37,948 nt of DNA from a virus (taxonomy: Duplodnaviria; Heunggongvirae; Uroviricota; Caudoviricetes), in IMG/VR virus record IMGVR_UViG_2939162341_000002. One strand, given 5' to 3'. A model generated the notes under the pieces. The model saw only the letters and a list, made by a program, of their open reading frames with translations, had not been told where the DNA came from and searched no databases. A program made the translations under genes and the position numbers. The first letter of the stretch is position 1. Each line of letters opens with the position of its first letter. Shown here in pieces: positions 3,629-26,409 of the stretch.

Positions 3629-3904
3629 GTGGCTTCTGTTTCTATCAGCTGTCCCTCCTGTTCAGCTACTGACGGGGTGGTGCGTAACGGCAAAAGCACC
3701 GCCGGACATCAGCGCTATCTCTGCTCTCACTGCCGTAAAACATGGCAACTGCAGTTCACTTACACCGCTTCTCAACCCGGTACGCACCAGAAAATCATTG
3801 ATATGGCCATGAATGGCGTTGGATGCCGGGCAACTGCCCGCATTATGGGCGTTGGCCTCAACACGATTTTACGTCACTTAAAAAACTCAGGCCGCAGTCG
3901 GTAA
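3629..3904 (+). CDS. insA: IS1 InsA
   Basis: 91-aa ORF with Cys-rich N-terminus ([28 protein letters not shown]), recognised as IS1 InsA from memory. Confidence 0.93.
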
Positions 3905-4326
3905 CCTCGCGCATACAACCGGGCAGCGATGTGATTGTCTGCGCTGAAATGGACGAACAGTGGGGCTACGTAGGTGCTAAATCACGTCAGCGCTGGCTGT
4001 TTTACGCGTATGACAGGATACGGAGGACGGTTGTGGCGCACGTCTTCGGTGAACGCACTCTGGCCACACTGGAGCGTCTTATGAGCCTGCTGTCGGCCTT
4101 TGACGTGGTGATATGGATGACGGATGGCTGGCCGCTGTATGAATCCCGCCTGAAGGGAAAGCTGCACGTAATCAGCAAGCGTTACACTCAGCGCATTGAG
4201 CGACATAATCTGAATCTGAGACAACATCTGGCAAGGCTGGGACGGAAGTCACTGTCGTTCTCAAAATCGGTGGAGCTGCATGACAAAGTCATCGGGCATT
4301 ATCTGAACATAAAACACTATCAGTAA
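3823..4326 (+). CDS. insB: IS1 InsB (transposase, made as InsAB' by -1 frameshift)
   Basis: 167-aa ORF overlapping the insA 3' end in the -1 frame, characteristic of IS1. Confidence 0.93.
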
Positions 4327-4387
4327 GTTGGAGTCATTACCGAATCGCAACGTAGTTATTATCATATAACAGCTTGTTTCCTGATTT

Positions 4388-4417
4388 AGCCAGCCTCCCC
4401 AAAGGCTGGTTTTTTTC
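4388..4417 (+). terminator. Rho-independent terminator (hairpin plus T7 run)
   Basis: AGCCAGCCT-CCCCAAA-AGGCTGG followed by TTTTTTT, directly right of IS1. Confidence 0.6.
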
Positions 4418-4444
4418 TAATAAGTATCATTTCGGGTGGGGATT

Positions 4445-4969
4445 TTATTGTTTAACCCATAATAGTTCATTGACATTGAATCCCAACTTTTGAGCGGTAC
4501 GCACATAGTCTGCTTTTACATTATCTGGAATAGTTTGGGTCCTTGCCAGAATCCATAGGTATTCTCTGTTCGGACCACTGACAAGAGCATACTTATACTC
4601 ATCATCCAGCTTGATTACATTATAGCCACCATAGAAGGGGCCAAAAAACGAAACTTTCAACGCTGCAGTTTTAGTATCTCCAGTAAAGTATGCTTTACCT
4701 TCGCTCTCGCTCCATTTGTTTTTCGTTGGATCGTATCCACGGTTAAGTACGCGAATCCCTCCGTCGTTCCGTTTTTCATAAGTAGCGCTGACCTGTTCCA
4801 GACCACGTTCGAACCAGTTCTCGAGGCGAGCTATTTCATACCATTTTCCGAGGTAGCGGTTGGCGTCAAAATTTGTAATCGGCTGCACACCTTTAGGTGG
4901 TGTCGGGGCCTTACATGCTATAAGAGTGAAAGAGAGTGCAATGCCAGTCAACACAGGCCATAACTTCAT
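4445..4969 (-). CDS. Outer-membrane lipoprotein of the bacterial lipocalin family (Blc-like paralog)
   Basis: 174 aa; lipoprotein signal peptide with lipobox (LIAC); lipocalin motifs shared with E. coli Blc as recalled (FDANRYLGKWYEIAR, GKAYFTG, ALKVSFFGPFYGGYNVI). Confidence 0.85.
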   Translation of the reverse strand: MKLWPVLTGIALSFTLIACKAPTPPKGVQPITNFDANRYLGKWYEIARLENWFERGLEQVSATYEKRNDGGIRVLNRGYDPTKNKWSESEGKAYFTGDTKTAALKVSFFGPFYGGYNVIKLDDEYKYALVSGPNREYLWILARTQTIPDNVKADYVRTAQKLGFNVNELLWVKQ

Positions 4970-11172: not shown

Positions 11173-12039
11173 CTAAGCGAGGTTCTTGTTTTCAAATTGT
11201 TCCGGACTGAGGCCGCCACACCAACTGTGCCGCCGCCACCGATTGTAATCACATTCGATATAATTAAACACCGTTGCCCGCATTATTTCCCGGCTGATAA
11301 AGTGTTCTCCATGGATACATTCCACTTTCAGCGAATGAAAGAAGCTTTCCACGCAGGCATTATCGTAGCAGCAACCTTTTGCGCTCATACTTCCACGCAG
11401 ATTATGCCGCTTCAGTTGCGCCTGATAATCTGCTGAACAGTACTGGCCTCCACGGTCCGTGTGAACGATAACGTTCCGGGGCCTCTTACGCCGCCACAGC
11501 GCCATCTGCAGGGCATCGCAGGCCAGTTGCGCCGTCATGCGTGGCGACATTGACCAGCCAATAACGGCACGTGACCACAGGTCAATGACCACTGCCAGAT
11601 ACAGCCAGCCTTCATCTGTACGTAAGTACGTGATGTCTCCTGCCCACTTCTGGTTCGGGCCACTGGCGTAAAAATCCTGCTCCAACAGATTTTCTGACAC
11701 AGGCAGGCCGTGTGCGCGGTAGCTGACCGGGCTGAACTTCCGGGAGGCCTTTGCCCTCAGTCCCTGACGGCGCAGGCTTGCCGCCACGGTTTTTACGTTA
11801 AAGGGGTAACCCTGAGCACGCAGTTCATCCGTCAGGCGTGGGGAACCGTAACGCTGTTTTGACCGGGTAAAAGCCGCGAGGACAACGCTGTCGCAGTGTT
11901 GGCGGAACTGCTGACGCGTGCTTATCCTTGTCCGCCGCTGACACCACGTATACCAGCCGCTGCGGGCCACCCGGAGCACGCGGCACATTGCTTTGATGCT
12001 GAACTCAGCCTGATGTTTTTCAATAAAGACATACTTCAT
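11173..12039 (-). CDS. insF: IS3 transposase OrfB (InsF, DDE integrase domain)
   Basis: 288-aa ORF recognised as IS3 InsF; overlaps orfA in the -1 frame as in IS3-family frameshift fusions. Confidence 0.93.
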
Positions 12040-12344
12040 TTCAGGCGCTTCGCGAAGTATGTCGCGGCCTTTTGGAGGATAGCCAGCTCTTCATCCCGTT
12101 CTGCCAGCTGGCGTTTGAGACGTGCAATCTCGGTAGACATCTCCAGTTCACGTTCAGAAGACGTCTGCTGATTTTGCTGTTTACTGCGCCAGTTGTAGAG
12201 TTGTGATTCATACAGGCTGAGTTCACGGGCTGCGGCAGTAACACCGATGCGTTCAGCAAGCTTCAGGGCTTCACTGCGAAATTCAGGCGAATGCTGTTTA
12301 CGGGGTTTTTTACTGGTTGATACTGTTTTTGTCATGTGAGTCAC
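12036..12344 (-). CDS. insE: IS3 transposase OrfA (InsE, HTH)
   Basis: ~100-aa ORF recognised as IS3 InsE ([32 protein letters not shown]...). Confidence 0.93.
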
Positions 12345-12592: not shown

Positions 12593-14692
12593 ATGGGTTT
12601 TTCATCAGCCCGAAATTTGGGAAGGGACATATCGGCAGGATTTTCCCCACCACGTCGCATGCCGATTTCGGAGGCTGTTAAAAAATTCATGCGTGTTCCC
12701 AAGGGGGCTGGTAACTCGGTGCCATGGGATCCTGAACTGACACCCTACATCATTGAGCCCATGAACTGCCTGGCATCGCGTGAATACGATGCGGTGATTT
12801 TTGTTGGTCCTGCGCGAACAGGGAAGACCATTGGTCTGATCGATGGATGGATTGTCTATACCATCGTTTGCGATCCTTCGGACATGCTCGTTGTGCAGAT
12901 GACCGAAGATAAGGCCCGCGAGCATTCAAAAAAGCGCCTCGACAGAACGTTCAGAAGCAGTGCGGCGGTAAAGAAAAGAATGAGTCCACGTCGTAATGAC
13001 AATAATGTCCATGATAAGACGTTCAGGGATGGCTCGTTCCTTAAAATTGGTTGGCCCTCGGTCAACATTATGTCGTCGTCGGATTACCGGTTTGTCGCCT
13101 TAACCGATTACGACCGTTTTCCGGAGAATATCGACAGCGAGGGTGATGGTTTCTCCCTGGCCTCAAAACGTACCACCACATTTATGTCCGCCGGGATGAC
13201 TCTGGTGGAGAGCTCGCCGGGACGTGACATCTGCGACAGCAAATGGCGACGTAAGTCGCCTCATGAAGCGCCACCGACGACTGGTATTCTTTCCCTTTAC
13301 AATCGTGGTGACCGCCGCCGCTGGTACTGGCCATGTCCGCACTGCGGTGAATATTTTCAGCCAGCCATGGATGCCATGACCGGCTACCGTAATGAACCGG
13401 ATCCCTTTAAAGCCAGTGAGGCGGCGTATCTACTTTGCCCGCACTGCAGCGGCATTATCACTGCGGAGAAAAAGCGTGAGCTCAATAGTGCAGGAGTCTG
13501 GTTGCGTGAAGGTCAGGTCATTGATTGTAACGGCAACGTTTCCGGTGAACCGCGCCGCTCCCGTATCGCCAGTTTCTGGATGGAAGGGCCAGCTGCTGCG
13601 TATCAGACCTGGGCGCAACTGGTTTACAAATTACTGACTGCAGAACAGGAGTATGAAGCGACAGGAAGTGAAGAAACACTCAGGGCGGTTATCAACACCG
13701 ACTGGGGATTACCTTATCTTCCCCGCGCCAGCATGGAGCAACGAAAAAGTGAACTGCTTGAGCAGCGGGCAGAGCCAGTTCCTTCCCGCAGTGTGCCAGA
13801 TGGCGTTAATTTTCTTGTGGCGACAGTGGATGTGCAGGCGGGACGTCACCGCCGTTTTGTGGTTCAGGTAACGGGCTATGGCAGCCGTGGCGAACGCTGG
13901 ATTATTGATCGTTACAACATCACGCAGTCATTGCGCGGTGACAGCGACGGGGAGAGCCAGCGAATTGATCCGGCCAGCTATCCGGAAGACTGGGATGTCC
14001 TGCTGACGGATGTTTTTCATAAAAGCTGGCCGCTGGCCTCCGATCCTTCTCAACAAATGCGACTGATGGCAATGGCGGTGGACTCCGGCGGTGAAGACGG
14101 GGTCACTGATAATGCCTATAAATTCTGGCGTCGTTGCCGTCGTGATGGCCTTGGTAAACGTATTTACCTGTTTAAGGGCGACAGCATCCGGCGCGCAAAA
14201 CTGATCACCCGTACATTCCCTGATAACACCGGACGAACGGGCCGACGGGCGCAGGCCGCAGGTGATGTGCCGCTCTGGCTTCTTCAGACGGATGCACTGA
14301 AAGACCGGGTGAATAACGCGTTATGGCGTGACTCGCCAGGTCCCGGCTATGTGCATTTCCCTGACTGGCTGGGGAGCTGGTTTTACGACGAACTGACGTA
14401 TGAAGAGCGGAGCAGTGACGGGAAATGGAGTAAGCCGGGTCGCGGTGCCAACGAAGCTTTTGACCTGATGGTGTATGCCGAGGCTCTGGTCATTCTGCAT
14501 GGATACGAAAAGATCCGCTGGCCGGATGCACCGGAGTGGGCGAGCCGGGAAACCTGGCTGGAGTGTGTCCCGGACAGTACCGAACCGTCATCCTCACCGG
14601 AACCGGTATCCACGCCTGTTAAAAAACAAAAACGGAAGAAAACAGTAACTGACGATGTTAACCCCTGGCTGACTTCCGGAGGATGGTTATGA
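12593..14692 (+). CDS. Terminase large subunit (GpA family)
   Basis: 699 aa; Walker A (VGPARTGKT); zinc-finger-like CPHCGEYFQ...CPHCSG resembling lambda gpA as recalled; followed by W-like and portal genes. Confidence 0.9.
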   Translation: MGFSSARNLGRDISAGFSPPRRMPISEAVKKFMRVPKGAGNSVPWDPELTPYIIEPMNCLASREYDAVIFVGPARTGKTIGLIDGWIVYTIVCDPSDMLVVQMTEDKAREHSKKRLDRTFRSSAAVKKRMSPRRNDNNVHDKTFRDGSFLKIGWPSVNIMSSSDYRFVALTDYDRFPENIDSEGDGFSLASKRTTTFMSAGMTLVESSPGRDICDSKWRRKSPHEAPPTTGILSLYNRGDRRRWYWPCPHCGEYFQPAMDAMTGYRNEPDPFKASEAAYLLCPHCSGIITAEKKRELNSAGVWLREGQVIDCNGNVSGEPRRSRIASFWMEGPAAAYQTWAQLVYKLLTAEQEYEATGSEETLRAVINTDWGLPYLPRASMEQRKSELLEQRAEPVPSRSVPDGVNFLVATVDVQAGRHRRFVVQVTGYGSRGERWIIDRYNITQSLRGDSDGESQRIDPASYPEDWDVLLTDVFHKSWPLASDPSQQMRLMAMAVDSGGEDGVTDNAYKFWRRCRRDGLGKRIYLFKGDSIRRAKLITRTFPDNTGRTGRRAQAAGDVPLWLLQTDALKDRVNNALWRDSPGPGYVHFPDWLGSWFYDELTYEERSSDGKWSKPGRGANEAFDLMVYAEALVILHGYEKIRWPDAPEWASRETWLECVPDSTEPSSSPEPVSTPVKKQKRKKTVTDDVNPWLTSGGWL

Positions 14693-20057: not shown

Positions 20058-20801
20058 ATGACCACACCAAATCCACTGGCAAAAACGAAAGGTGCGGGAA
20101 CGACGTTCTGGATGTACACCGGCAAGGGCGATGCGTTTGCGAACCCTTTATCGGACACTGACTGGCTGCGTCTTGCGATGGTGAAGGATCTGCAACCTGG
20201 CGAAATGACCGCTGATGCAGAAGATGACACTTATCTCGATGATGAAGATGCAGACTGGAAAACGACAACTCAGGGGCAGAAATCCGTCGGTGATACTTCG
20301 GCGACGCTGGCCTGGCGTCCGGGTGACAGCGGACAGAAAAAACTGGTTCAGTTGTTCGACTCCGGTGAAATCTGCGCGTTTCGTATCAAATATCCCAACG
20401 GCACTGTTGATGTTTTCCGTGGCTGGCTGAGTTCACTGGGTAAAACCATTGCCTCAAAAGACGTGATGACCCGCACCGTGAAAATCAGCGGTGTGGGGCG
20501 TCCGTATCTGGCAGAGGAGGGCACTGAAACCGTGGGCGTTACCGGGCTGACGGTGGCACCGGCATCCGCCAGTATCAATGTGGGAGCAACCACCACGCTG
20601 ACCTTTACAGTAAAACCTGACGGAGCCAGTGACAAAGCGATCAGTGTGCATTCGACAGATCCACAGACAGCCACTGTGACCCTGAACGGACTTGTGGCCA
20701 CGGTGAAAGGCGTGAAGCAGGGCAGTGTCAGCATTGTGGGCATGACTTCTGACGGCGATTTTGTGGCAGTGGCTACGGTGGCTGTCAGCGCCGCAGGTTA
20801 A
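20058..20801 (+). CDS. Major tail protein (lambda gpV-like) with C-terminal Ig-like domain
   Basis: Strong resemblance to lambda V (KGAGTT.W.Y.G.GD..ANPLSD.DW.RLA.VKDL.PGE.TA...DD.YLDDEDADW, FPNGTVDVFRGW); RBS AAGGAGGTGG. Confidence 0.93.
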   Translation: MTTPNPLAKTKGAGTTFWMYTGKGDAFANPLSDTDWLRLAMVKDLQPGEMTADAEDDTYLDDEDADWKTTTQGQKSVGDTSATLAWRPGDSGQKKLVQLFDSGEICAFRIKYPNGTVDVFRGWLSSLGKTIASKDVMTRTVKISGVGRPYLAEEGTETVGVTGLTVAPASASINVGATTTLTFTVKPDGASDKAISVHSTDPQTATVTLNGLVATVKGVKQGSVSIVGMTSDGDFVAVATVAVSAAG

Positions 20802-20821: not shown

Positions 20822-20845
20822 GCCCCGGTTATTCGGGGCTTTTTT
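20822..20845 (+). terminator. Hairpin plus T-run between V and G (possible attenuator)
   Basis: GCCCCG-GTTATT-CGGGGC followed by TTTTTT. Confidence 0.5.
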
Positions 20846-20858
20846 GCAGGTGGAGAAT

Positions 20859-21248
20859 ATGATGTTTCTGAAACAGGGCACGTTTAATTATGAAAAACAG
20901 TCCGTGGTGCTCAGTGAGCTGTCCGGGCTGCAGAGAATTGAATATCTGGCGTTTGTTCAGCAGCGAACGGCAAAGTTTGATGCCGGGGAGGGAGAACTAT
21001 CGGAGGCTGAACGACAGATTGCTTTTCTGCGGATGGGGATGGATATCAATGCCTGGCTGGTTTCCCGCTCACTGTGGAATGCGGAACAGTCTCAGGATGT
21101 TGAGACGCTTTACGCATCCGTTATTACAAGATGGTCGTATGATGCCCTAGGTGCGGGGGCGGAGATGGTTCTGTCGCTGAGCGGTATGGGGGCCATTGAT
21201 AATGCCGGGGATTTGGAGCATGAGGTGCTGACGCCGGAAAAGTCCTGA
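20859..21248 (+). CDS. Tail assembly chaperone G
   Basis: Starts MMFLKQ with RBS GGTGGAG; lambda G-like (MFLK..., LSELS.LQRIE.LA); followed by a T ORF in the -1 frame. Confidence 0.85.
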   Translation: MMFLKQGTFNYEKQSVVLSELSGLQRIEYLAFVQQRTAKFDAGEGELSEAERQIAFLRMGMDINAWLVSRSLWNAEQSQDVETLYASVITRWSYDALGAGAEMVLSLSGMGAIDNAGDLEHEVLTPEKS

Positions 21249-21535
21249 CGCGGGAAATGCAGTTTGTCATGCGGCTTGCCCGGGAGTTCCGGCGGGCAGA
21301 CTGGCGGCGGATGCTGTCGGAAATGTCGGCCACTGAGCTTGGTGAGTGGGGCGATTATTTCCGGATGCAGAGCTTCAGTGATGTGTGGATGGATGCGCAG
21401 TTTGCCTCGCTGAAGGCATTGATCGTGAGAATGGTGTCCGGCAGCAGTGATGCTGCGGTGGCTGATTTCAGCCTTTTACCGGAAGAGAACGGGATACCGG
21501 AGCGAACGGACGAAGAACTGATGCATCTTGGGTAA
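20859..21535 (+). CDS. Tail assembly chaperone G-T fusion, made by a programmed -1 frameshift near the end of G
   Basis: The T frame (ORF 21257..21535) is -1 relative to G and is open from 21224; only 21224..21245 allows the shift; candidate site G GAA AAG at 21236..21242. Confidence 0.6.
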
Positions 21536-21557
21536 GGTATTTCCGGAGGTGTGCGTT

Positions 21558-24500
21558 ATGGACCAGATAGCCAACCTGGTCATTGATTTGGGGATTGATG
21601 CGGCAGAGTTTAAAAATGAAATTCCCCGTATCAAAAACCTTCTGAATGGTGCAGCCAGCGATGCAGAACGGTCTTCTGCCCGTATGCAGCGTTTTATGGA
21701 GCGTCAGACTCAGGCCGCCCGGCAGACAACGCAGGCGGCGTCTTCGGCTGCAACAGCCGCATCCGTCCATGCGCAGACGGTGGAGAAGAACGCACAGGCT
21801 CATGAACGCATGGCCCGCGAGGTGGAGAAAACCCGCCAGCGTATGGAGGCACTGAGCCAGAAAATGCGCGAGGAACAGGCGCAGGCCATGGCTCTGGCGG
21901 AGGCTCAGGATAAAGCAGCTGCTGCGTTTTATCGTCAGATTGACAGTGTGAAACAGGCCAGTGCGGGGCTGCAGGAATTACAGCGTATTCAGCAGCAGAT
22001 CCGACAGTCCAGAAACAGTGGCGGGATTGGTCAGCAGGATTATCTGGCGCTGATTTCTGAGGTTACGGCGAAAACCCGTGTTCTTACGCAGGCTGAGGAA
22101 GAGGCTACCCGACAGAAAGTGGCGTTTATCCGTCAGCTTAAAGAGCAGGCAACCCGCCAGAATCTTTCTTCTTCTGAGTTGCTTCGTGCTAAGGCTGCCC
22201 AGCTGGGGGTAAGCAGTGCTGCAGAAGTGTATATCCGCAAAATGGAGCAGGCAGGAAAAGCCACGCATTCGCTGGGTCTGAAAAGTGCAGCGGCCCGCCA
22301 GGAGATAGGCGTTCTGATAGGTGAACTGGCCCGCGGCAATGTAGGGGCGCTGAGGGGATCCGGGATAACGCTGGCTAACCGTGCCGGATGGATAGACACT
22401 CTGATGTCACCGAAAGGCATGATGCTTGGCGGGGTTATTGGCGGTATTGCCGCGTCCGTCTATGGTCTGGGTAAAGCCTGGTATGACGGTCAGAAGGAGG
22501 GGGAAGAATTTAACCGCCAGTTGTCGCTGACGGGGCATTATGCCGGAGTCACTGCCGGGCAGCTGTGGACGCTCAGTCGTGCTATTTCCGGGAATGGTAT
22601 CACGCAACATGCTGCAGCCGGTGTGCTGGCTCAGGTGGTGGGGAGTGGTGCATTTCGTGGAAACGATATCGGTATGGTGGCGAGAGCTGCCGCACAGATG
22701 GAGCGATCGGTTGGCCAGTCGGTCAGCGATACCATAAATCAGTTTAAGCGGCTGAAGGATGATCCTGTAAATGCCGCGAAGGCTCTGGACAATGAGCTGC
22801 ATTTTCTTACTGCCACTCAGCTTGAGCAGATACGTGTCCTTGGGGATCAGGGACGGTCCAGTGATGCTGCACGGATAGCCATGTCTGCACTGGCAGAGGA
22901 AACCGGTCGGCGTACTGCGGATATTGATAATAACCTCAATGCGCTTGGCAGTACGCTGAAGTATCTGTCTGATTTGTGGAGTCGTTTCTGGGATGCGGCC
23001 ATGAATATTGGTCGTGAAGACTCGCTGGATGAACAGATTGCCGCTTTACAGGAGAAAGTGTCGCGGGCGAAAAGACTCCCCTGGACGGCATCATCTTCTC
23101 AGGTTGAATACGATCAGCAGCGTCTTAACGATCTTCAGGAGAAAAAACGCCAGAAGGATTTGCAGGATGCAAAAGAGCAGGCAGAGCGGAATTATCAGGA
23201 GCAACAGAAACGACGTAATGCTGAAAATGCTGCACTGAACCGGATGAATGAAACGGAAGCAGCACGACATCAGCGTGAAATTGCGCGTATTAATTCCATG
23301 CAGTACGCCGATCAGGCTGTCAGGGATGCAGCGATACAACGTGAAAATGAACGTTACGAGAAAGCCCTGGCATCCGGTAAGAAAAAAACACGCGAAACCC
23401 GTAATGATGAGGCCACCCGGTTATTGCTGCAGTACAGTCAGCAACAGGCACAGGTGGAAGGACAGATTGCTGCTGCAAGACAGTCAGCAGGCATTGCCAC
23501 TGAAAAGATGACAGAAGCGCATAAACAGCTTCTGGCTCTGCAGCAGCGCATCAGCGATCTGGACGGGAAAAAACTGACGGCAGATGAAAAGAGTGTGCTG
23601 GCCCGTAAAGATGAACTGATTCAGGCACTGACGCTGCTGGATGTAAAACAGCAGGAGCTTCAGAAACAGACGGCACTCAACGATCTGAAGAAAAAAACAA
23701 TTCAGCTGACCAGTCAACTGGCTGAAGAAGAGCTCGTTCAGCGTCAGCAACATGACCTGGATATCGCCACGGTGGGTATGGGTGATCAGCAGCGGCAGCG
23801 ATATCAGGTACAACTGAGTCTTCGCCAGAAATACCAGCAACAGCTGGAGCAGTTGAGGCGGGATAGTGAGCAGAAAGGGACATATAACACGGATGACTAC
23901 AGAAAGGCCGAGCAGGCGCTGACGGAGAGCCTGAACCGACAACTGAATGAGAATCGCCGTTACTGGCAACAGCTTGAAGTTGTGCAGGGTAACTGGAAAA
24001 ACGGAGTCCTGCGTGCATTTCAGGATTTTACCGTGGATGCAGACAATACGGCAGGAACAGCAGAACAGGTGTTCTCGTCAGCCTTCAGCAACATGGGAAA
24101 TGGTCTGGCAACTTTTGTCACTACCGGCAAACTCAACTTCAAATCCTTCACCTCTTCGGTGCTGTCAGATATGGCGAAAATCCTGGCGCAGGCAACCATG
24201 ATGAAATCGATAAAAGGGATTGGCAGTGTACTGGGATTTGATCTCAGCAGCCTTTCCCTGAATGCCAATGGGGGGATTTATCAGTCTGCTGATTTGAGTC
24301 GTTACAGTGGCACGGTGGTTAACCGTCCGACGTTTTTTGCTTTTGCAAAAGGCGCGGGTGTGATGGGGGAAGCTGGACCTGAAGCCATTCTGCCACTGCG
24401 TCGTGGTGCTGACGGTAAGCTGGGGGTTGTGGCGGATATTGGTGGTTCAGGTATGGCGATGTTTGCCCCGCAGTACAACATCGAGATCAATAACGATGGC

Positions 24501-24623
24501 ACGAACGGGCAGATAGGTCCGGCTGCCCTGAAGGTGGTTTATGACCTTGGGAAAAAAGCGGCAGCGGACTTTATGCAACAGCAGGCCCGTGATGGTGGTC
24601 GGTTAAGTGGAGCATATCGGTAA
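21558..24623 (+). CDS. Tail tape measure protein (lambda gpH-like)
   Basis: ~1020 aa; coiled-coil-rich; C-terminus INNDGTNGQIGPAALKVVYDLGKK...DGGRLSG resembles lambda H; ATG at 21558 with RBS GGAGGTG (ORF-finder start is TTG at 21528). Confidence 0.92.
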   Translation: MDQIANLVIDLGIDAAEFKNEIPRIKNLLNGAASDAERSSARMQRFMERQTQAARQTTQAASSAATAASVHAQTVEKNAQAHERMAREVEKTRQRMEALSQKMREEQAQAMALAEAQDKAAAAFYRQIDSVKQASAGLQELQRIQQQIRQSRNSGGIGQQDYLALISEVTAKTRVLTQAEEEATRQKVAFIRQLKEQATRQNLSSSELLRAKAAQLGVSSAAEVYIRKMEQAGKATHSLGLKSAAARQEIGVLIGELARGNVGALRGSGITLANRAGWIDTLMSPKGMMLGGVIGGIAASVYGLGKAWYDGQKEGEEFNRQLSLTGHYAGVTAGQLWTLSRAISGNGITQHAAAGVLAQVVGSGAFRGNDIGMVARAAAQMERSVGQSVSDTINQFKRLKDDPVNAAKALDNELHFLTATQLEQIRVLGDQGRSSDAARIAMSALAEETGRRTADIDNNLNALGSTLKYLSDLWSRFWDAAMNIGREDSLDEQIAALQEKVSRAKRLPWTASSSQVEYDQQRLNDLQEKKRQKDLQDAKEQAERNYQEQQKRRNAENAALNRMNETEAARHQREIARINSMQYADQAVRDAAIQRENERYEKALASGKKKTRETRNDEATRLLLQYSQQQAQVEGQIAAARQSAGIATEKMTEAHKQLLALQQRISDLDGKKLTADEKSVLARKDELIQALTLLDVKQQELQKQTALNDLKKKTIQLTSQLAEEELVQRQQHDLDIATVGMGDQQRQRYQVQLSLRQKYQQQLEQLRRDSEQKGTYNTDDYRKAEQALTESLNRQLNENRRYWQQLEVVQGNWKNGVLRAFQDFTVDADNTAGTAEQVFSSAFSNMGNGLATFVTTGKLNFKSFTSSVLSDMAKILAQATMMKSIKGIGSVLGFDLSSLSLNANGGIYQSADLSRYSGTVVNRPTFFAFAKGAGVMGEAGPEAILPLRRGADGKLGVVADIGGSGMAMFAPQYNIEINNDGTNGQIGPAALKVVYDLGKKAAADFMQQQARDGGRLSGAYR

Positions 24624-25660: not shown

Positions 25661-26409
25661 ATCCCATGACAGAGACAGAATCAGCGATTCTGGCGCACGC
25701 CCGGCGATGTGCGCCAGCGGAGTCGTGCGGCTTCGTGGTGAGAACGCCGGAGGGGGAAAGATATTTTCCCTGCGTGAATATCTCCGGTGAGCCGGAGGAT
25801 TATTTCCGGATGGCTCCGGAGGACTGGCTGCAGGCAGAAATGCAGGGTGAGATTGTGGCGCTGGTCCACAGCCACCCCGGTGGTCTGCCCTGGCTGAGTG
25901 AGGCCGACCGGCGGCTGCAGGTGCAGAGTGATTTGCCGTGGTGACTGGTTTGCCGGGGGGCGATTCACAAGTTCCGCTGTGTGCCACATCTTTCCGGGCG
26001 GCGCTTTGAGCACGGGGTGACGGACTGTTACACGCTGTTCCGGGATGCTTACCATCTGGCGGGGATTGAGATGCCGGATTTTCATCGCGAGGATGACTGG
26101 TGGCGTAACGGTCAGAATCTCTATCTGGATAATCTGGAGGCCACAGGGCTGTATCAGGTGCCGTTGTCAGCGGCGCAGCCGGGCGATGTGCTGATGTGCT
26201 GTTTTGGTTCATCGGTGCCGAATCATGCCGCCATTTACTGTGGTGACAGCGAGCTGCTGCACCATATTCCTGAACAACTGAGCAAACGAGAGAGGTACAC
26301 CGACAAATGGCAGCGACGCACACACTCCCTCTGGCGTCACCGGGCATGGCACGCATCTGCCTTTACGGGGATTTACAACGATTTGGCCGCCGCATCGACC
26401 TTCGAGTGA
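25657..26409 (+). pseudogene. Tail tip assembly protein K (MPN/JAMM plus NlpC/P60 domains) interrupted by an in-frame TGA at 25942..25944
   Basis: The two ORF-finder pieces (25657..25944 and 25981..26409) are in the same frame. The upstream piece carries HSHPGG (JAMM); the downstream piece carries the Cys region (DCYTLF). The stop follows a Trp codon (PW*LVCRG), consistent with TGG to TGA. Confidence 0.8.

What the first reader, a model, noticed from the sequence alone, without database searches (positions are those of the whole stretch)
21224..21259. G/GT frameshift window is only 22 nt and lacks a canonical slippery heptamer
The T frame is -1 relative to G and opens after a TGA at 21221..21223, while G ends at 21246..21248, so any shift must occur within GTGCTGACGCCGGAAAAGTCC. 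The best candidate is G GAA AAG at 21236..21242, which departs from the lambda-type GGGAAAG. The G to GT ratio may differ from lambda, or the shift may be inefficient in this degenerate element.
Basis: partly seen in the sequence, partly recalled or inferred. Interest (0 to 1): 0.4.

Follow-up and report, generated by a model that had tools for sequence, protein, structure and literature searches.

The report
Ordinary G/GT tail-chaperone frameshift site
This is the normal ribosomal frameshift site of a lambda-like phage tail-assembly gene pair. Its "non-canonical" slippery sequence G_GAA_AAG is the commonest one in this gene family, so it is not decay, and the real damage in this prophage lies elsewhere.

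Summary
G ends at TGA 21246-21248, and the -1 (T) frame opens at 21224 after TGA 21221-21223. The overlap is 22 nt, and its only slippery motif is G_GAA_AAG at 21236-21242.

The interpretation as an oddity or as decay is not supported.
- The junction is nearly invariant in 83 close relatives: the heptamer and stop never vary, and the only changes are a few upstream substitutions. These relatives include deposited isolate phage genomes (mEp460, Ayreon, cdtI, Tritos, HannyBb, phi458).
- The G-T segment occurs in 1848 of 5426 complete E. coli genomes.
- G_GAA_AAG sits at the orthologous position in phi80, where GenBank annotates it as the -1 slippery sequence. It also sits there in mEp043, Gifsy-1 and Klebsiella phage Kp4865-4.
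- A scan anchored only in T found G_GAA_AAG or G_GGA_AAG at that offset in 42 of 42 loci. G_GAA_AAG accounts for 28 of 35 dereplicated lineages.

The likely mechanism is tandem -1 slippage: tRNA-Lys moves AAG to AAA, and tRNA-Glu moves GAA to GGA with a central G·U pair. Efficiency is unmeasured, and in vitro this heptamer is less slippery than lambda's. No downstream structure is evident here. An SD-like GAGGTG lies at dnaX-like spacing upstream, but its role is speculative.

The real decay is a private GAA-to-TAA nonsense at 21533 that truncates T by 17 residues. There are also IS insertions and a gpK stop.

Verdict: already known, low interest.

The parts
20058..20801 (+). Major tail tube gene (lambda V homologue), immediately upstream of G
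   Evidence: Pfam Phage_TTP_12 3.5e-66 plus Big_2. Annotated as major tail protein in mEp460 and Ayreon.
20822..20845 (+). Terminator-like hairpin GCCCCGGTTATTCGGGGC followed by T6, between the V stop and the G start
   Evidence: Consensus scan. The equivalent site is annotated as a rho-independent terminator in mEp460 and Ayreon.
20859..21248 (+). Gene G, tail assembly chaperone (129 aa from ATG 20859; a second ATG lies at 20862); stop TGA at 21246-21248
   Evidence: Pfam Phage_TAC_2 1.5e-39. ORF list. Same length as mEp460 G.
21221..21223 (+). TGA in the -1 frame that closes the T frame upstream, so the T frame opens at 21224
21222..21227 (+). Shine-Dalgarno-like GAGGTG. Aligned to the SD consensus, 11 nt separate the equivalent of dnaX's last SD G from the heptamer (10 nt in dnaX). 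Possible upstream stimulator; function not shown.
   Evidence: Duplex with the 16S 3' end is -8.8 kcal/mol for the core and -9.2 for the 16-nt window; 3.6% of 16-nt windows in the late operon bind as well. GAGG is kept in every close-relative context seen. Similar motifs in the same register occur in other lineages of the same clade.
21224..21245 (+). G/T overlap (22 nt), the only stretch in which a -1 shift yields GT
21236..21242 (+). Slippery heptamer G_GAA_AAG (zero frame CCG GAA AAG; -1 frame GGA AAA G)
   Evidence: Only slippery motif in the overlap. Invariant in 83 close relatives. Aligned with lambda G_GGA_AAG and Stx-phage A_AAA_AAG. Identical to the annotated phi80 slippery sequence. 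Present in 28 of 35 dereplicated lineages.
21242..21535 (+). T-encoding segment read after the shift (VLTREMQFVMRLAREF...LMHLG), ending at a premature TAA
   Evidence: Pfam Phage_tail_T 7.4e-13, matching profile positions 1-65 of 73. Translation.
21533..21535 (+). Private nonsense codon TAA (GAA in relatives) that removes the last 17 residues of T/GT, including the conserved GGVRYG motif
   Evidence: Alignment with mEp460 and Ayreon. GAA in 81 of 82 relatives with a scorable T end; the only other TAA is the near-identical HUE1 locus. The motif is conserved in lambda, phi80, Gifsy-1 and Kp4865-4.
21536..21586 (+). Remnant of the ancestral T C-terminus (GISGGVRYGPDSQPGH, then TGA at 21584-21586). 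It overlaps the RBS (GGAGG 21545-21549) and the start of H.
21558..24623 (+). Tape measure gene (lambda H homologue)
   Evidence: Pfam TMP_2 1.2e-48, Tape_meas_lam_C 3.2e-22, TMP_4.

Best explanation
This is the standard programmed -1 ribosomal frameshift site of a lambda-type tail assembly chaperone pair (G and GT). It belongs to an mEp460/cdtI-like lambdoid prophage of E. coli.

Most ribosomes read CCG GAA AAG TCC TGA and release G. A minority slip back one base on G_GAA_AAG. In that slip the A-site tRNA-Lys (anticodon mnm5s2UUU) moves from AAG to the cognate AAA. The P-site tRNA-Glu (mnm5s2UUC) moves from GAA to GGA, keeping G-C and A-U pairs around a central G·U. Translation then continues as ...TPEK|VLTREMQFVMRLAREF..., producing GT.

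G_GAA_AAG is not a degraded lambda site. It is the predominant, selectively maintained heptamer of this family, an intermediate 'G_GA' type between a full X_XXY_YYZ heptamer and a bare A_AAG tetramer.

Shown here: the geometry, the homology and the conservation. Inferred: the tRNA re-pairing scheme, and that the shift is low-level as in lambda (about 4%, G:GT about 30:1). Not shown: the efficiency, or any stimulator.

In this particular copy the GT product would lack its conserved C-terminus because of a nonsense mutation at 21533. The prophage is defective, so the signal is intact but its product is probably not functional.
For: - Geometry and domains.
- Close relatives: the G-T segment is 97-99% identical to 17 phage records (13 distinct phages) deposited as isolate genomes. 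The heptamer and G stop are invariant in 83 close relatives. The G-T segment is present in 1848 of 5426 complete E. coli genomes.
- Orthologous G_GAA_AAG: found in phi80, where FN582354 carries a misc_feature 'slippery sequence for -1 translational frameshift' on exactly these 7 nt plus a joined G-T CDS. Also in mEp043, in Gifsy-1 (T annotated as made by translational frameshifting) and in Kp4865-4. G proteins of the lambda/phi80-type lineages are only 31-38% identical to this one; Gifsy-1 is the closest outside the group at 56%.
- Register: an eight-lineage alignment puts G_GAA_AAG, G_GGA_AAG and A_AAA_AAG in the same columns, with AAAG invariant.
- IMG/VR scan requiring only AAAG plus T motifs: GGAAAAG 59 loci (34 contexts), GGGAAAG 43 (13), AAAAAAG 6 (3), and four loci with AGAAAAG, CGAAAAG or CGCAAAG.
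- Species-representative genome scan anchored only inside T: 42 of 42 loci carry GGAAAAG (23 loci, 17 contexts, at least 10 enterobacterial genera) or GGGAAAG (19 loci, 4 contexts). No synonymous GAG or AAA variants were seen, although E. coli uses AAG for only 24% of Lys codons (PMC3296357).
- Position 1 is G in 28 of 30 lineages that have xGAAAAG, which argues that P-site re-pairing matters.
- T-frame homology (V/A-L/F-x-x-E-L/M-x-F) begins right after the heptamer in all lineages.
- Literature: A_AAG is the most shift-prone tetramer in E. coli (PMC4066793). 'G_GA' P-site intermediates are a recognised class, and phage G-T shifting is low-level and apparently without stimulators (PMC5009743). 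G·U re-pairing of the Glu anticodon on GGA is noted for phage chaperone motifs (PMC10885494).
Against: - No efficiency has been measured for this context.
- In a reconstituted E. coli system, G GAA AAG gave mainly zero-frame product and was called unfavourable because of the second-position mismatch (PMC6924986).
- A_AAG tetramers alone were near background (about 0.15%) without a stimulator (PMC4066793).
- No significantly stable downstream structure exists here (z = -0.9 to -1.1).
- The database search returned no annotated GT protein with the junction TPEK|VLTREM. The only full-length matches are three singleton deletion fusions.
- In this window the T frame is truncated by a nonsense codon, so the product is probably not functional here.
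Confidence: 0.87

Rival explanations
1. Decay: the site is a lambda-type G_GGA_AAG ruined by a G-to-A point mutation in a dying prophage, so GT is no longer made.
For: The prophage is defective. By mapping of the 99.99% identical HUE1 locus it carries IS1 and IS3 insertions and truncated genes. It has a gpK-like internal stop at 25942 and a T nonsense at 21533. The heptamer differs from lambda's by one base.
Against: The heptamer is identical in all 83 close relatives, including deposited isolate phage genomes. It is also the heptamer of phi80, mEp043, Gifsy-1 and Kp4865-4, and of 28 of 35 dereplicated lineages. The nearest outgroup, Gifsy-1, already has it, so it is ancestral to this clade and not a recent lesion.
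Confidence: 0.02
2. T is made on its own from the ATG at 21257, as PGAP and most phage records annotate it, with no frameshift.
For: An in-frame ATG lies at 21257 with a weak GGGA two bases upstream. T is annotated as a separate CDS in HUE1, mEp460 and others.
Against: That ATG is not conserved: Gifsy-1 has CTG there, and phi80, lambda and Kp4865-4 have CTG or TTG. T-frame homology extends upstream of it to the heptamer (VLTRE / VLNRE / ALASE / VFDGE). The heptamer is conserved at synonymous sites, which independent initiation would not require. In lambda, T is expressed as part of gpGT (PMC5009743 and PMC3296357).
Confidence: 0.04
3. Same site, different sub-mechanism: only the A-site tRNA-Lys slips on A_AAG (hexanucleotide NNA_AAG type), and tRNA-Glu does not re-pair.
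For: Family variants in which P-site re-pairing is impossible or poor exist: C_GCA_AAG, C_GAA_AAG, A_GAA_AAG. A_AAG is the best tetramer in E. coli (PMC4066793). Productive use of G_CGA_AAG and A_CGA_AAG, and the dependence on the two 5' bases, are described in PMC5009743.
Against: Position 1 is G in 28 of 30 xGAAAAG lineages and in 23 of 23 genome-scan loci, well above the roughly 35-50% expected from NNG codon usage (my estimate). That points to a contribution from G-C re-pairing by tRNA-Glu. Tetramers alone were near background without a strong stimulator.
Confidence: 0.25
4. The weak heptamer is boosted, dnaX-style, by the upstream SD-like GAGGTG (21222-21227) pairing with 16S rRNA. In this clade that would replace the downstream helix seen in the lambda/phi80 clade.
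For: GAGGUG pairs with the anti-SD at -8.8 kcal/mol, and the aligned spacing is 11 nt against 10 in dnaX (dnaX cassette in PMC6924986). SD-like motifs in the same register occur in 8 of 9 lineages of the window's clade despite different tail peptides. Across 35 lineages, SD strength anticorrelates with downstream folding z-score (Spearman -0.45, p = 0.006; Mann-Whitney p = 0.005). The downstream 90 nt fold significantly in lambda, phi80 and Kp4865-4 (z = -2.5, -3.2, -3.6) but not in the window or Gifsy-1.
Against: The correlation rests mainly on one deep clade split, so the p-values are inflated. 3.6% of 16-nt windows in the late operon bind as well, and G itself contains stronger SD-like runs. 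The motif derives from a family-wide conserved Glu codon in an acidic tail. mEp460 has the weaker GAGGCG (-5.6). Reviews state that phage G-T shifting seems not to involve stimulators. RNAalifold on 35 lineages finds no consensus structure.
Confidence: 0.2

Closest known systems
Bacteriophage lambda G/GT programmed -1 frameshift (G_GGA_AAG; Levin, Hendrix and Casjens 1993; Xu, Hendrix and Duda 2004, 2013, 2014, as cited in PMC5009743)
   Same: Same gene order V-G-T-H and same Pfam families (Phage_TAC_2, Phage_tail_T). The T frame is -1 and has no conserved start of its own. The heptamer sits in the same alignment columns, with the same A-site codon AAG and the same tRNA-Lys.
   Different: - The P-site codon is GAA (Glu) rather than GGA (Gly), so re-pairing includes a central G·U.
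- The G stop lies 3 nt after the heptamer rather than 15, and the overlap is 22 nt rather than 61.
- The downstream 90 nt do not fold significantly, whereas lambda's do (z = -2.5).
- The G proteins are only about 31% identical.
Phage phi80 G-T (GenBank FN582354: joined gpG-T CDS and a misc_feature 'slippery sequence for -1 translational frameshift')
   Same: Identical heptamer G_GAA_AAG at the orthologous position.
   Different: phi80 belongs to the lambda-like clade (AEK junction, DWRAML T motif). Its G stop is 15 nt downstream and its overlap is 82 nt. It has a stable downstream fold (z = -3.2) and no SD-like motif in the -21..-6 range.
Phages mEp460, cdtI, Ayreon, Tritos, HannyBb and phi458, and Salmonella phage Gifsy-1
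   Same: The first six have a G-T segment 97-99% identical and a near-identical junction. Gifsy-1 (56% G identity) has the same ...ACGCCGGAAAAGTCCTGA junction, and its T is annotated as made by translational frameshifting.
   Different: Their T frames are intact (120-121 codons). The window's is cut to 103 by TAA at 21533.
E. coli dnaX -1 frameshift (A_AAA_AAG with an upstream SD-like element and a downstream stem-loop)
   Same: Same A-site event (tRNA-Lys, AAG to AAA). An SD-like element lies at similar spacing upstream.
   Different: dnaX has a fully slippery heptamer, a proven stem-loop and about 50% efficiency. Here there is no evident stem-loop, the SD-like role is untested, and the expected level is a few percent at most.
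'G_GA'-type and NNA_AAG intermediate shift sites (G_GAU_UUU of insect-specific flaviviruses, dianthoviruses and mesoniviruses; G_CGA_AAG of IS1222; PMC5009743)
   Same: The P-site codon re-pairs imperfectly while the A-site re-pairs cognately.
   Different: Those sites generally depend on strong 3' stimulators. This is a bacterial, low-level site with none demonstrated.

Membership tests
Lambda-type G/GT tail assembly chaperone with programmed -1 frameshift | A G homologue lying between the major tail (tube) gene and the tape measure gene | tested here: met
   Phage_TAC_2 1.5e-39, flanked by Phage_TTP_12 and by TMP_2 / Tape_meas_lam_C genes.
Lambda-type G/GT tail assembly chaperone with programmed -1 frameshift | A T domain encoded in the -1 frame, overlapping the 3' end of G, with homology starting at the shift site and no conserved start codon | tested here: met
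   Phage_tail_T 7.4e-13. The -1 frame is open from 21224. The post-heptamer peptide is conserved across lineages, and ATG 21257 is not.
Lambda-type G/GT tail assembly chaperone with programmed -1 frameshift | A slippery sequence within the overlap, conserved among relatives | tested here: met
   G_GAA_AAG at 21236-21242. It is invariant in 83 close relatives, orthologous in 5 divergent lineages, and one of only two heptamers found in 42 of 42 T-anchored loci.
Lambda-type G/GT tail assembly chaperone with programmed -1 frameshift | A GT fusion protein actually produced at a low fixed ratio (about 1:30 in lambda) and required for tail assembly | not testable with these tools
   No expression data. 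The only fused proteins in the database are three singleton deletion fusions.
Lambda-type G/GT tail assembly chaperone with programmed -1 frameshift | An intact T domain including the conserved C-terminal GGVR(Y/F)G motif | tested here: not met
   TAA at 21533 removes 17 residues. GAA in 81 of 82 relatives with a scorable T end (the other TAA is the near-identical HUE1 locus). The Pfam match stops at profile position 65 of 73. This affects the function of this copy, not the identity of the site.
Canonical X_XXY_YYZ tandem-slippage heptamer | Positions 1-3 identical and positions 4-6 identical | tested here: not met
   G-G-A / A-A-A / G. Position 3 is A, not G. It fits the recognised 'G_GA' intermediate class instead (PMC5009743).
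dnaX-type stimulated -1 frameshift | An SD-like element about 10-14 nt upstream of the heptamer that pairs with 16S rRNA | tested here: inconclusive
   GAGGTG at 21222-21227, -8.8 kcal/mol, aligned spacing 11 nt. Such windows occur at 3.6% background frequency, and the cross-lineage correlation is confounded by phylogeny.
dnaX-type stimulated -1 frameshift | A stable stem-loop or pseudoknot starting 5-9 nt downstream of the heptamer | tested here: not met
   z = -0.96, -0.93, -1.09 and -0.87 for the downstream windows. The predicted local hairpin starts 0-1 nt after the heptamer. The window keeps 13 of 20 pairs of the helix pair seen in the lambda/phi80 clade (my reading of alignment A3).

The most novel reading that the evidence does not exclude
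Within lambda-like chaperone genes there may be two solutions for driving a low-level shift on the intrinsically weak G_GAA_AAG. One is a downstream helix pair, seen in the lambda/phi80 clade. The other is a dnaX-like upstream SD-like element at about 11 nt, seen in the mEp460/Gifsy-1 clade that includes this window.

In addition, both slipping tRNAs (Glu and Lys) carry mnm5s2U34, whereas in lambda only tRNA-Lys does. The G:GT ratio of this large prophage family could therefore be more tightly coupled than lambda's to the host's 2-thiouridine (Tus/MnmA) pathway.
Probability: 0.15. Interest if true: 0.45.

Novelty: already known. Interest (0 to 1): 0.15.

Why it matters
Little is new here. The result corrects a plausible misreading: a heptamer that fails the X_XXY_YYZ rule is not a sign of decay. 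G_GAA_AAG is the majority slip site of lambda-type G/GT genes, and the G-T segment carrying it is present in about a third of complete E. coli genomes.

Two practical points follow.
- Annotation pipelines, and most phage records, still call T as a separate gene from an unconserved ATG. Motif-based frameshift finders restricted to XXXYYYZ will miss this family.
- The same heptamer has been used in vitro as a 'poorly slippery' control, yet phages rely on it. That makes it a convenient natural system for asking how little slipperiness suffices and whether context compensates.

For this locus specifically, the functional lesion is the T nonsense codon at 21533, not the slip site.

Tried and rejected
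- **Downstream stimulator.** RNAalifold on 8 lineages proposed two nested helices starting 7 nt after the heptamer. On 35 dereplicated lineages the consensus collapsed to 4 invariant pairs. Counting the proposed pairs gave 82.9% paired against 30-41% for slid controls, and covariation 0.132 against 0.05-0.08. However, the structure was derived from a subset of the same sequences and lies in strongly conserved coding sequence. The window keeps only 13 of 20 pairs and shows no significant folding. Rejected as a stimulator for this window; left open for the lambda/phi80 clade.
- **Trade-off between SD-like motif and downstream structure.** It is nominally significant, but a G-protein tree shows it rests mainly on one deep split. 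Kept only as a low-probability hypothesis.
- **Annotated GT fusion proteins with this junction.** The search found only three singleton in-frame deletion fusions.
- **Literature on GGAAAAG as a phage slip site.** Searches found only the in vitro control use. Licznar et al. 2003 on NNA_AAG motifs is not held, and Xu et al. 2004 could not be consulted directly.
- **Transcriptional slippage on A4.** Considered and dismissed, because the run is far shorter than the 7-9 or more A/T known to support it (established knowledge; not tested).
- **Internal initiation driven by GAGGTG.** No start codon lies at suitable spacing.
Full report
**1. Observation**

Reading the sequence and running a frame script confirm every coordinate in the finding.
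- G runs from ATG 20859 to TGA 21246-21248 (129 aa).
- The -1 frame carries TGA at 21221-21223 and is open from 21224.
- The overlap is 22 nt (GGTGCTGACGCCGGAAAAGTCC).
- It contains no X_XXY_YYZ heptamer. The only zero-frame motif with a slippery A-site codon is G_GAA_AAG at 21236-21242, one codon (TCC) before the G stop.

Pfam identifies G as Phage_TAC_2 (1.5e-39) and the -1 frame as Phage_tail_T (7.4e-13). They lie between a lambda-type tail tube gene and a tape measure gene. The heptamer itself occurs 8 times in the window against about 6 expected. Its presence alone therefore means nothing; the frame, the position and the conservation are what count.

**2. What the element is**

The G-T segment is 97-99% identical to 17 phage records (13 distinct phages) deposited as isolate genomes, including mEp460, cdtI, Ayreon, Tritos, HannyBb and phi458. 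It occurs in 1848 of 5426 complete E. coli genomes.

The window as a whole is 99.99% identical to a prophage of E. coli HUE1. That prophage sits next to a 5'-truncated ydfJ and alongside Qin-type genes (pinQ, ydfK, rzpQ). By mapping of the HUE1 annotation it is defective:
- IS1 and IS3 insertions;
- a truncated exonuclease gene and a truncated small-terminase-like gene;
- a gpK-like gene with an internal TGA at window 25942.

It does not apply to the slip site.

**3. The slip site is conserved, not decayed**

Among 83 close relatives (80 IMG/VR loci, mEp460, Ayreon and HUE1), the junction GCATGAGG(T/C)GCTGACGCCGGAAAAGTCCTGA never varies in the heptamer or the stop.

I extracted the same region from more distant relatives.

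| Phage | G stop after heptamer | Overlap |
|---|---|---|
| phi80 | 15 nt | 82 nt |
| mEp043 | 15 nt | 40 nt |
| Gifsy-1 | 3 nt | 28 nt |
| Klebsiella phage Kp4865-4 | 3 nt | 22 nt |

All four carry G_GAA_AAG at the orthologous position. Lambda and one Stx2a phage have G_GGA_AAG, and another Stx2 phage has A_AAA_AAG. An eight-lineage alignment places all of these in the same columns, with AAAG invariant.

For phi80, GenBank record FN582354 annotates exactly these seven bases as 'slippery sequence for -1 translational frameshift' and gives a joined gpG-T CDS. Gifsy-1's T is annotated as made by translational frameshifting.

**4. How common the heptamer is**

An IMG/VR scan required only AAAG at a fixed distance from invariant T-domain bases. 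It returned 120 loci, capped. Among the 113 scorable matches:

| Heptamer | Loci | Distinct contexts |
|---|---|---|
| GGAAAAG | 59 | 34 |
| GGGAAAG | 43 | 13 |
| AAAAAAG | 6 | 3 |
| AGAAAAG | 2 | 2 |
| CGAAAAG | 1 | 1 |
| CGCAAAG | 1 | 1 |

One further match (GAGAAAG) was not a G/T locus.

A second scan, of one genome per species, used a pattern lying wholly inside T, so the heptamer was unconstrained. It returned 42 loci. All 42 have GGAAAAG (23 loci, 17 contexts, at least ten enterobacterial genera) or GGGAAAG (19 loci, 4 contexts) at the expected offset. Sixteen of the GGGAAAG hits are lambda itself on short, low-coverage contigs of unrelated organisms, which points to contamination.

Two further observations argue for selection on the nucleotides:
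- No synonymous GAG or AAA variant was seen, although AAG is the minor Lys codon in E. coli (0.24; PMC3296357).
- After dereplication at 94% identity, 28 of 35 lineages carry G_GAA_AAG, and position 1 is G in 28 of 30 lineages with xGAAAAG.

Overlaps in relatives range from 13 to 91 nt, so 22 nt is unremarkable.

**5. Mechanism**

The A-site event is the classic one for E. coli. The single tRNA-Lys re-pairs from AAG to the better-matched AAA, and A_AAG is by far the most shift-prone tetramer (PMC4066793; PMC5009743).

In the P site, tRNA-Glu (anticodon UUC) moving from GAA to GGA keeps the first and third pairs and gains a central G·U. The near-invariance of the first G argues that this re-pairing contributes. 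The site is therefore best described as an intermediate 'G_GA' heptamer, a class recognised in the review literature. The same G·U argument has been made for phage chaperone motifs (PMC10885494). The predicted product reads ...LTPEK|VLTREMQFVMRLAREF....

Efficiency is unknown, and there are real reasons for caution:
- In a purified system G GAA AAG was used as the poorly slippery comparator of G GGA AAG and gave mainly zero-frame product (PMC6924986).
- Tetramers alone were near background in vivo without a pseudoknot.

Lambda needs only about 4% (G:GT about 30:1), and too much GT is harmful (PMC5009743; PMC3296357). A low intrinsic rate may therefore be sufficient.

**6. Stimulators**

The 90-100 nt downstream of the window's heptamer do not fold better than shuffles (z about -1). 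The equivalent regions of lambda, phi80 and Kp4865-4 do (z = -2.5, -3.2, -3.6). They form an outer stem starting 5-7 nt after the heptamer around a GGCGCG...CGCGCC hairpin. Twenty-one of 35 lineages have z below -2.

Covariation support for that structure is weak and ambiguous. It coincides with the coding of LAREF...DWRAML, so it may be incidental.

Upstream, the window has GAGGTG at 21222-21227. It binds the 16S 3' end at -8.8 kcal/mol and sits at dnaX-like spacing. Similar motifs in the same register recur in 8 of 9 lineages of the window's clade. SD strength anticorrelates with downstream folding across the 35 lineages (rho = -0.45, p = 0.006).

A G-protein tree shows that this correlation rests mainly on one deep clade split. 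In addition, such SD-like windows are not rare in this purine-rich gene (3.6%). I therefore rate the SD-stimulator idea at about 0.2.

**7. Where the decay really is**

The T frame ends at TAA 21533-21535. mEp460, Ayreon and all 80 IMG/VR relatives have GAA or another sense codon there and continue for 17 more residues (EGISGGVRYGPDSQPGH) to a TGA at the position of window 21584-21586. Only the near-identical HUE1 locus shares the TAA.

The lost segment contains the GGVR(Y/F)G motif, which is conserved in lambda, phi80, Gifsy-1 and Kp4865-4. Any GT made here is therefore C-terminally truncated. PGAP does not flag this.

**8. Comparison and verdict**

The site meets the testable defining features of a lambda-type G/GT frameshift: synteny, domains, -1 overlap and a conserved slip site. 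It fails only the strict X_XXY_YYZ rule. In this copy it also fails T-domain integrity.

It is already known in substance: phi80's record annotates the same heptamer, and Gifsy-1's record describes the frameshift. Interest is low (0.15).

The most novel reading not excluded is clade-specific alternative stimulators, together with double dependence on s2U34-modified tRNAs. I give it about 0.15 probability and moderate interest if true.

Noticed in passing
window 21533-21535 (ancestral stop at 21584-21586): A private GAA-to-TAA nonsense mutation truncates T/GT by 17 residues, including the conserved GGVRYG motif. Among the relatives it is seen only in the near-identical HUE1 locus. PGAP annotates the shortened T as a normal gene.
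   Followed up: yes
window 25666-26409 (stop at 25942); about 11173-12335; about 3629-4326; 4345-4648; 12593-14692: Other signs of a defective prophage: an internal TGA in the gpK-like C40 peptidase gene, and IS3 and IS1 insertions (by mapping of the HUE1 annotation). The window differs from HUE1 by about 304 extra nt next to IS1 and by 3 SNPs. One of those SNPs leaves the window's large terminase gene intact, whereas HUE1's has a stop at codon 246.
   Followed up: partly
window 20822-20845: A strong terminator-like hairpin (GCCCCGGTTATTCGGGGC followed by T6) lies between the major tail gene stop and the G start. The equivalent site is annotated as a terminator in mEp460 and Ayreon. It might set V:G/T/H stoichiometry by partial termination.
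   Followed up: partly
L003:517-606 (lambda), L086:1315-1404 (phi80), L090:1318-1407 (Kp4865-4): The 90 nt after the heptamer fold significantly better than shuffles in the lambda/phi80 clade (z = -2.3 to -4.7 in 21 of 35 lineages), with a stem starting 5-7 nt downstream. Reviews say the G-T shift seems to need no stimulator. The fold may be a by-product of coding LAREF...DWRAML.
   Followed up: partly
L214, L215, L217, L218, L221, L223, L225, L226, L232, L237, L241-L243, L247, L251, L252: Sixteen species-representative assemblies of unrelated taxa (Kitasatospora, Neobacillus, Oceanobacillus, Chromatium, Pseudoxanthomonas, Psychrobacter and others) carry a G-T junction identical to lambda, many of them on short and/or low-coverage contigs. 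This looks like lambda DNA contamination.
   Followed up: no
L207, L192, L168, L205: Rare family variants at the orthologous site: C_GCA_AAG, C_GAA_AAG and A_GAA_AAG. In L192 and L205 a TAA stop immediately follows the heptamer. These are sites where P-site re-pairing is poor or impossible.
   Followed up: no
P0001, P0002, P0003: Three singleton database proteins are in-frame genomic G-T fusions created by deletions around the junction, so they would produce GT constitutively and no free G.
   Followed up: partly
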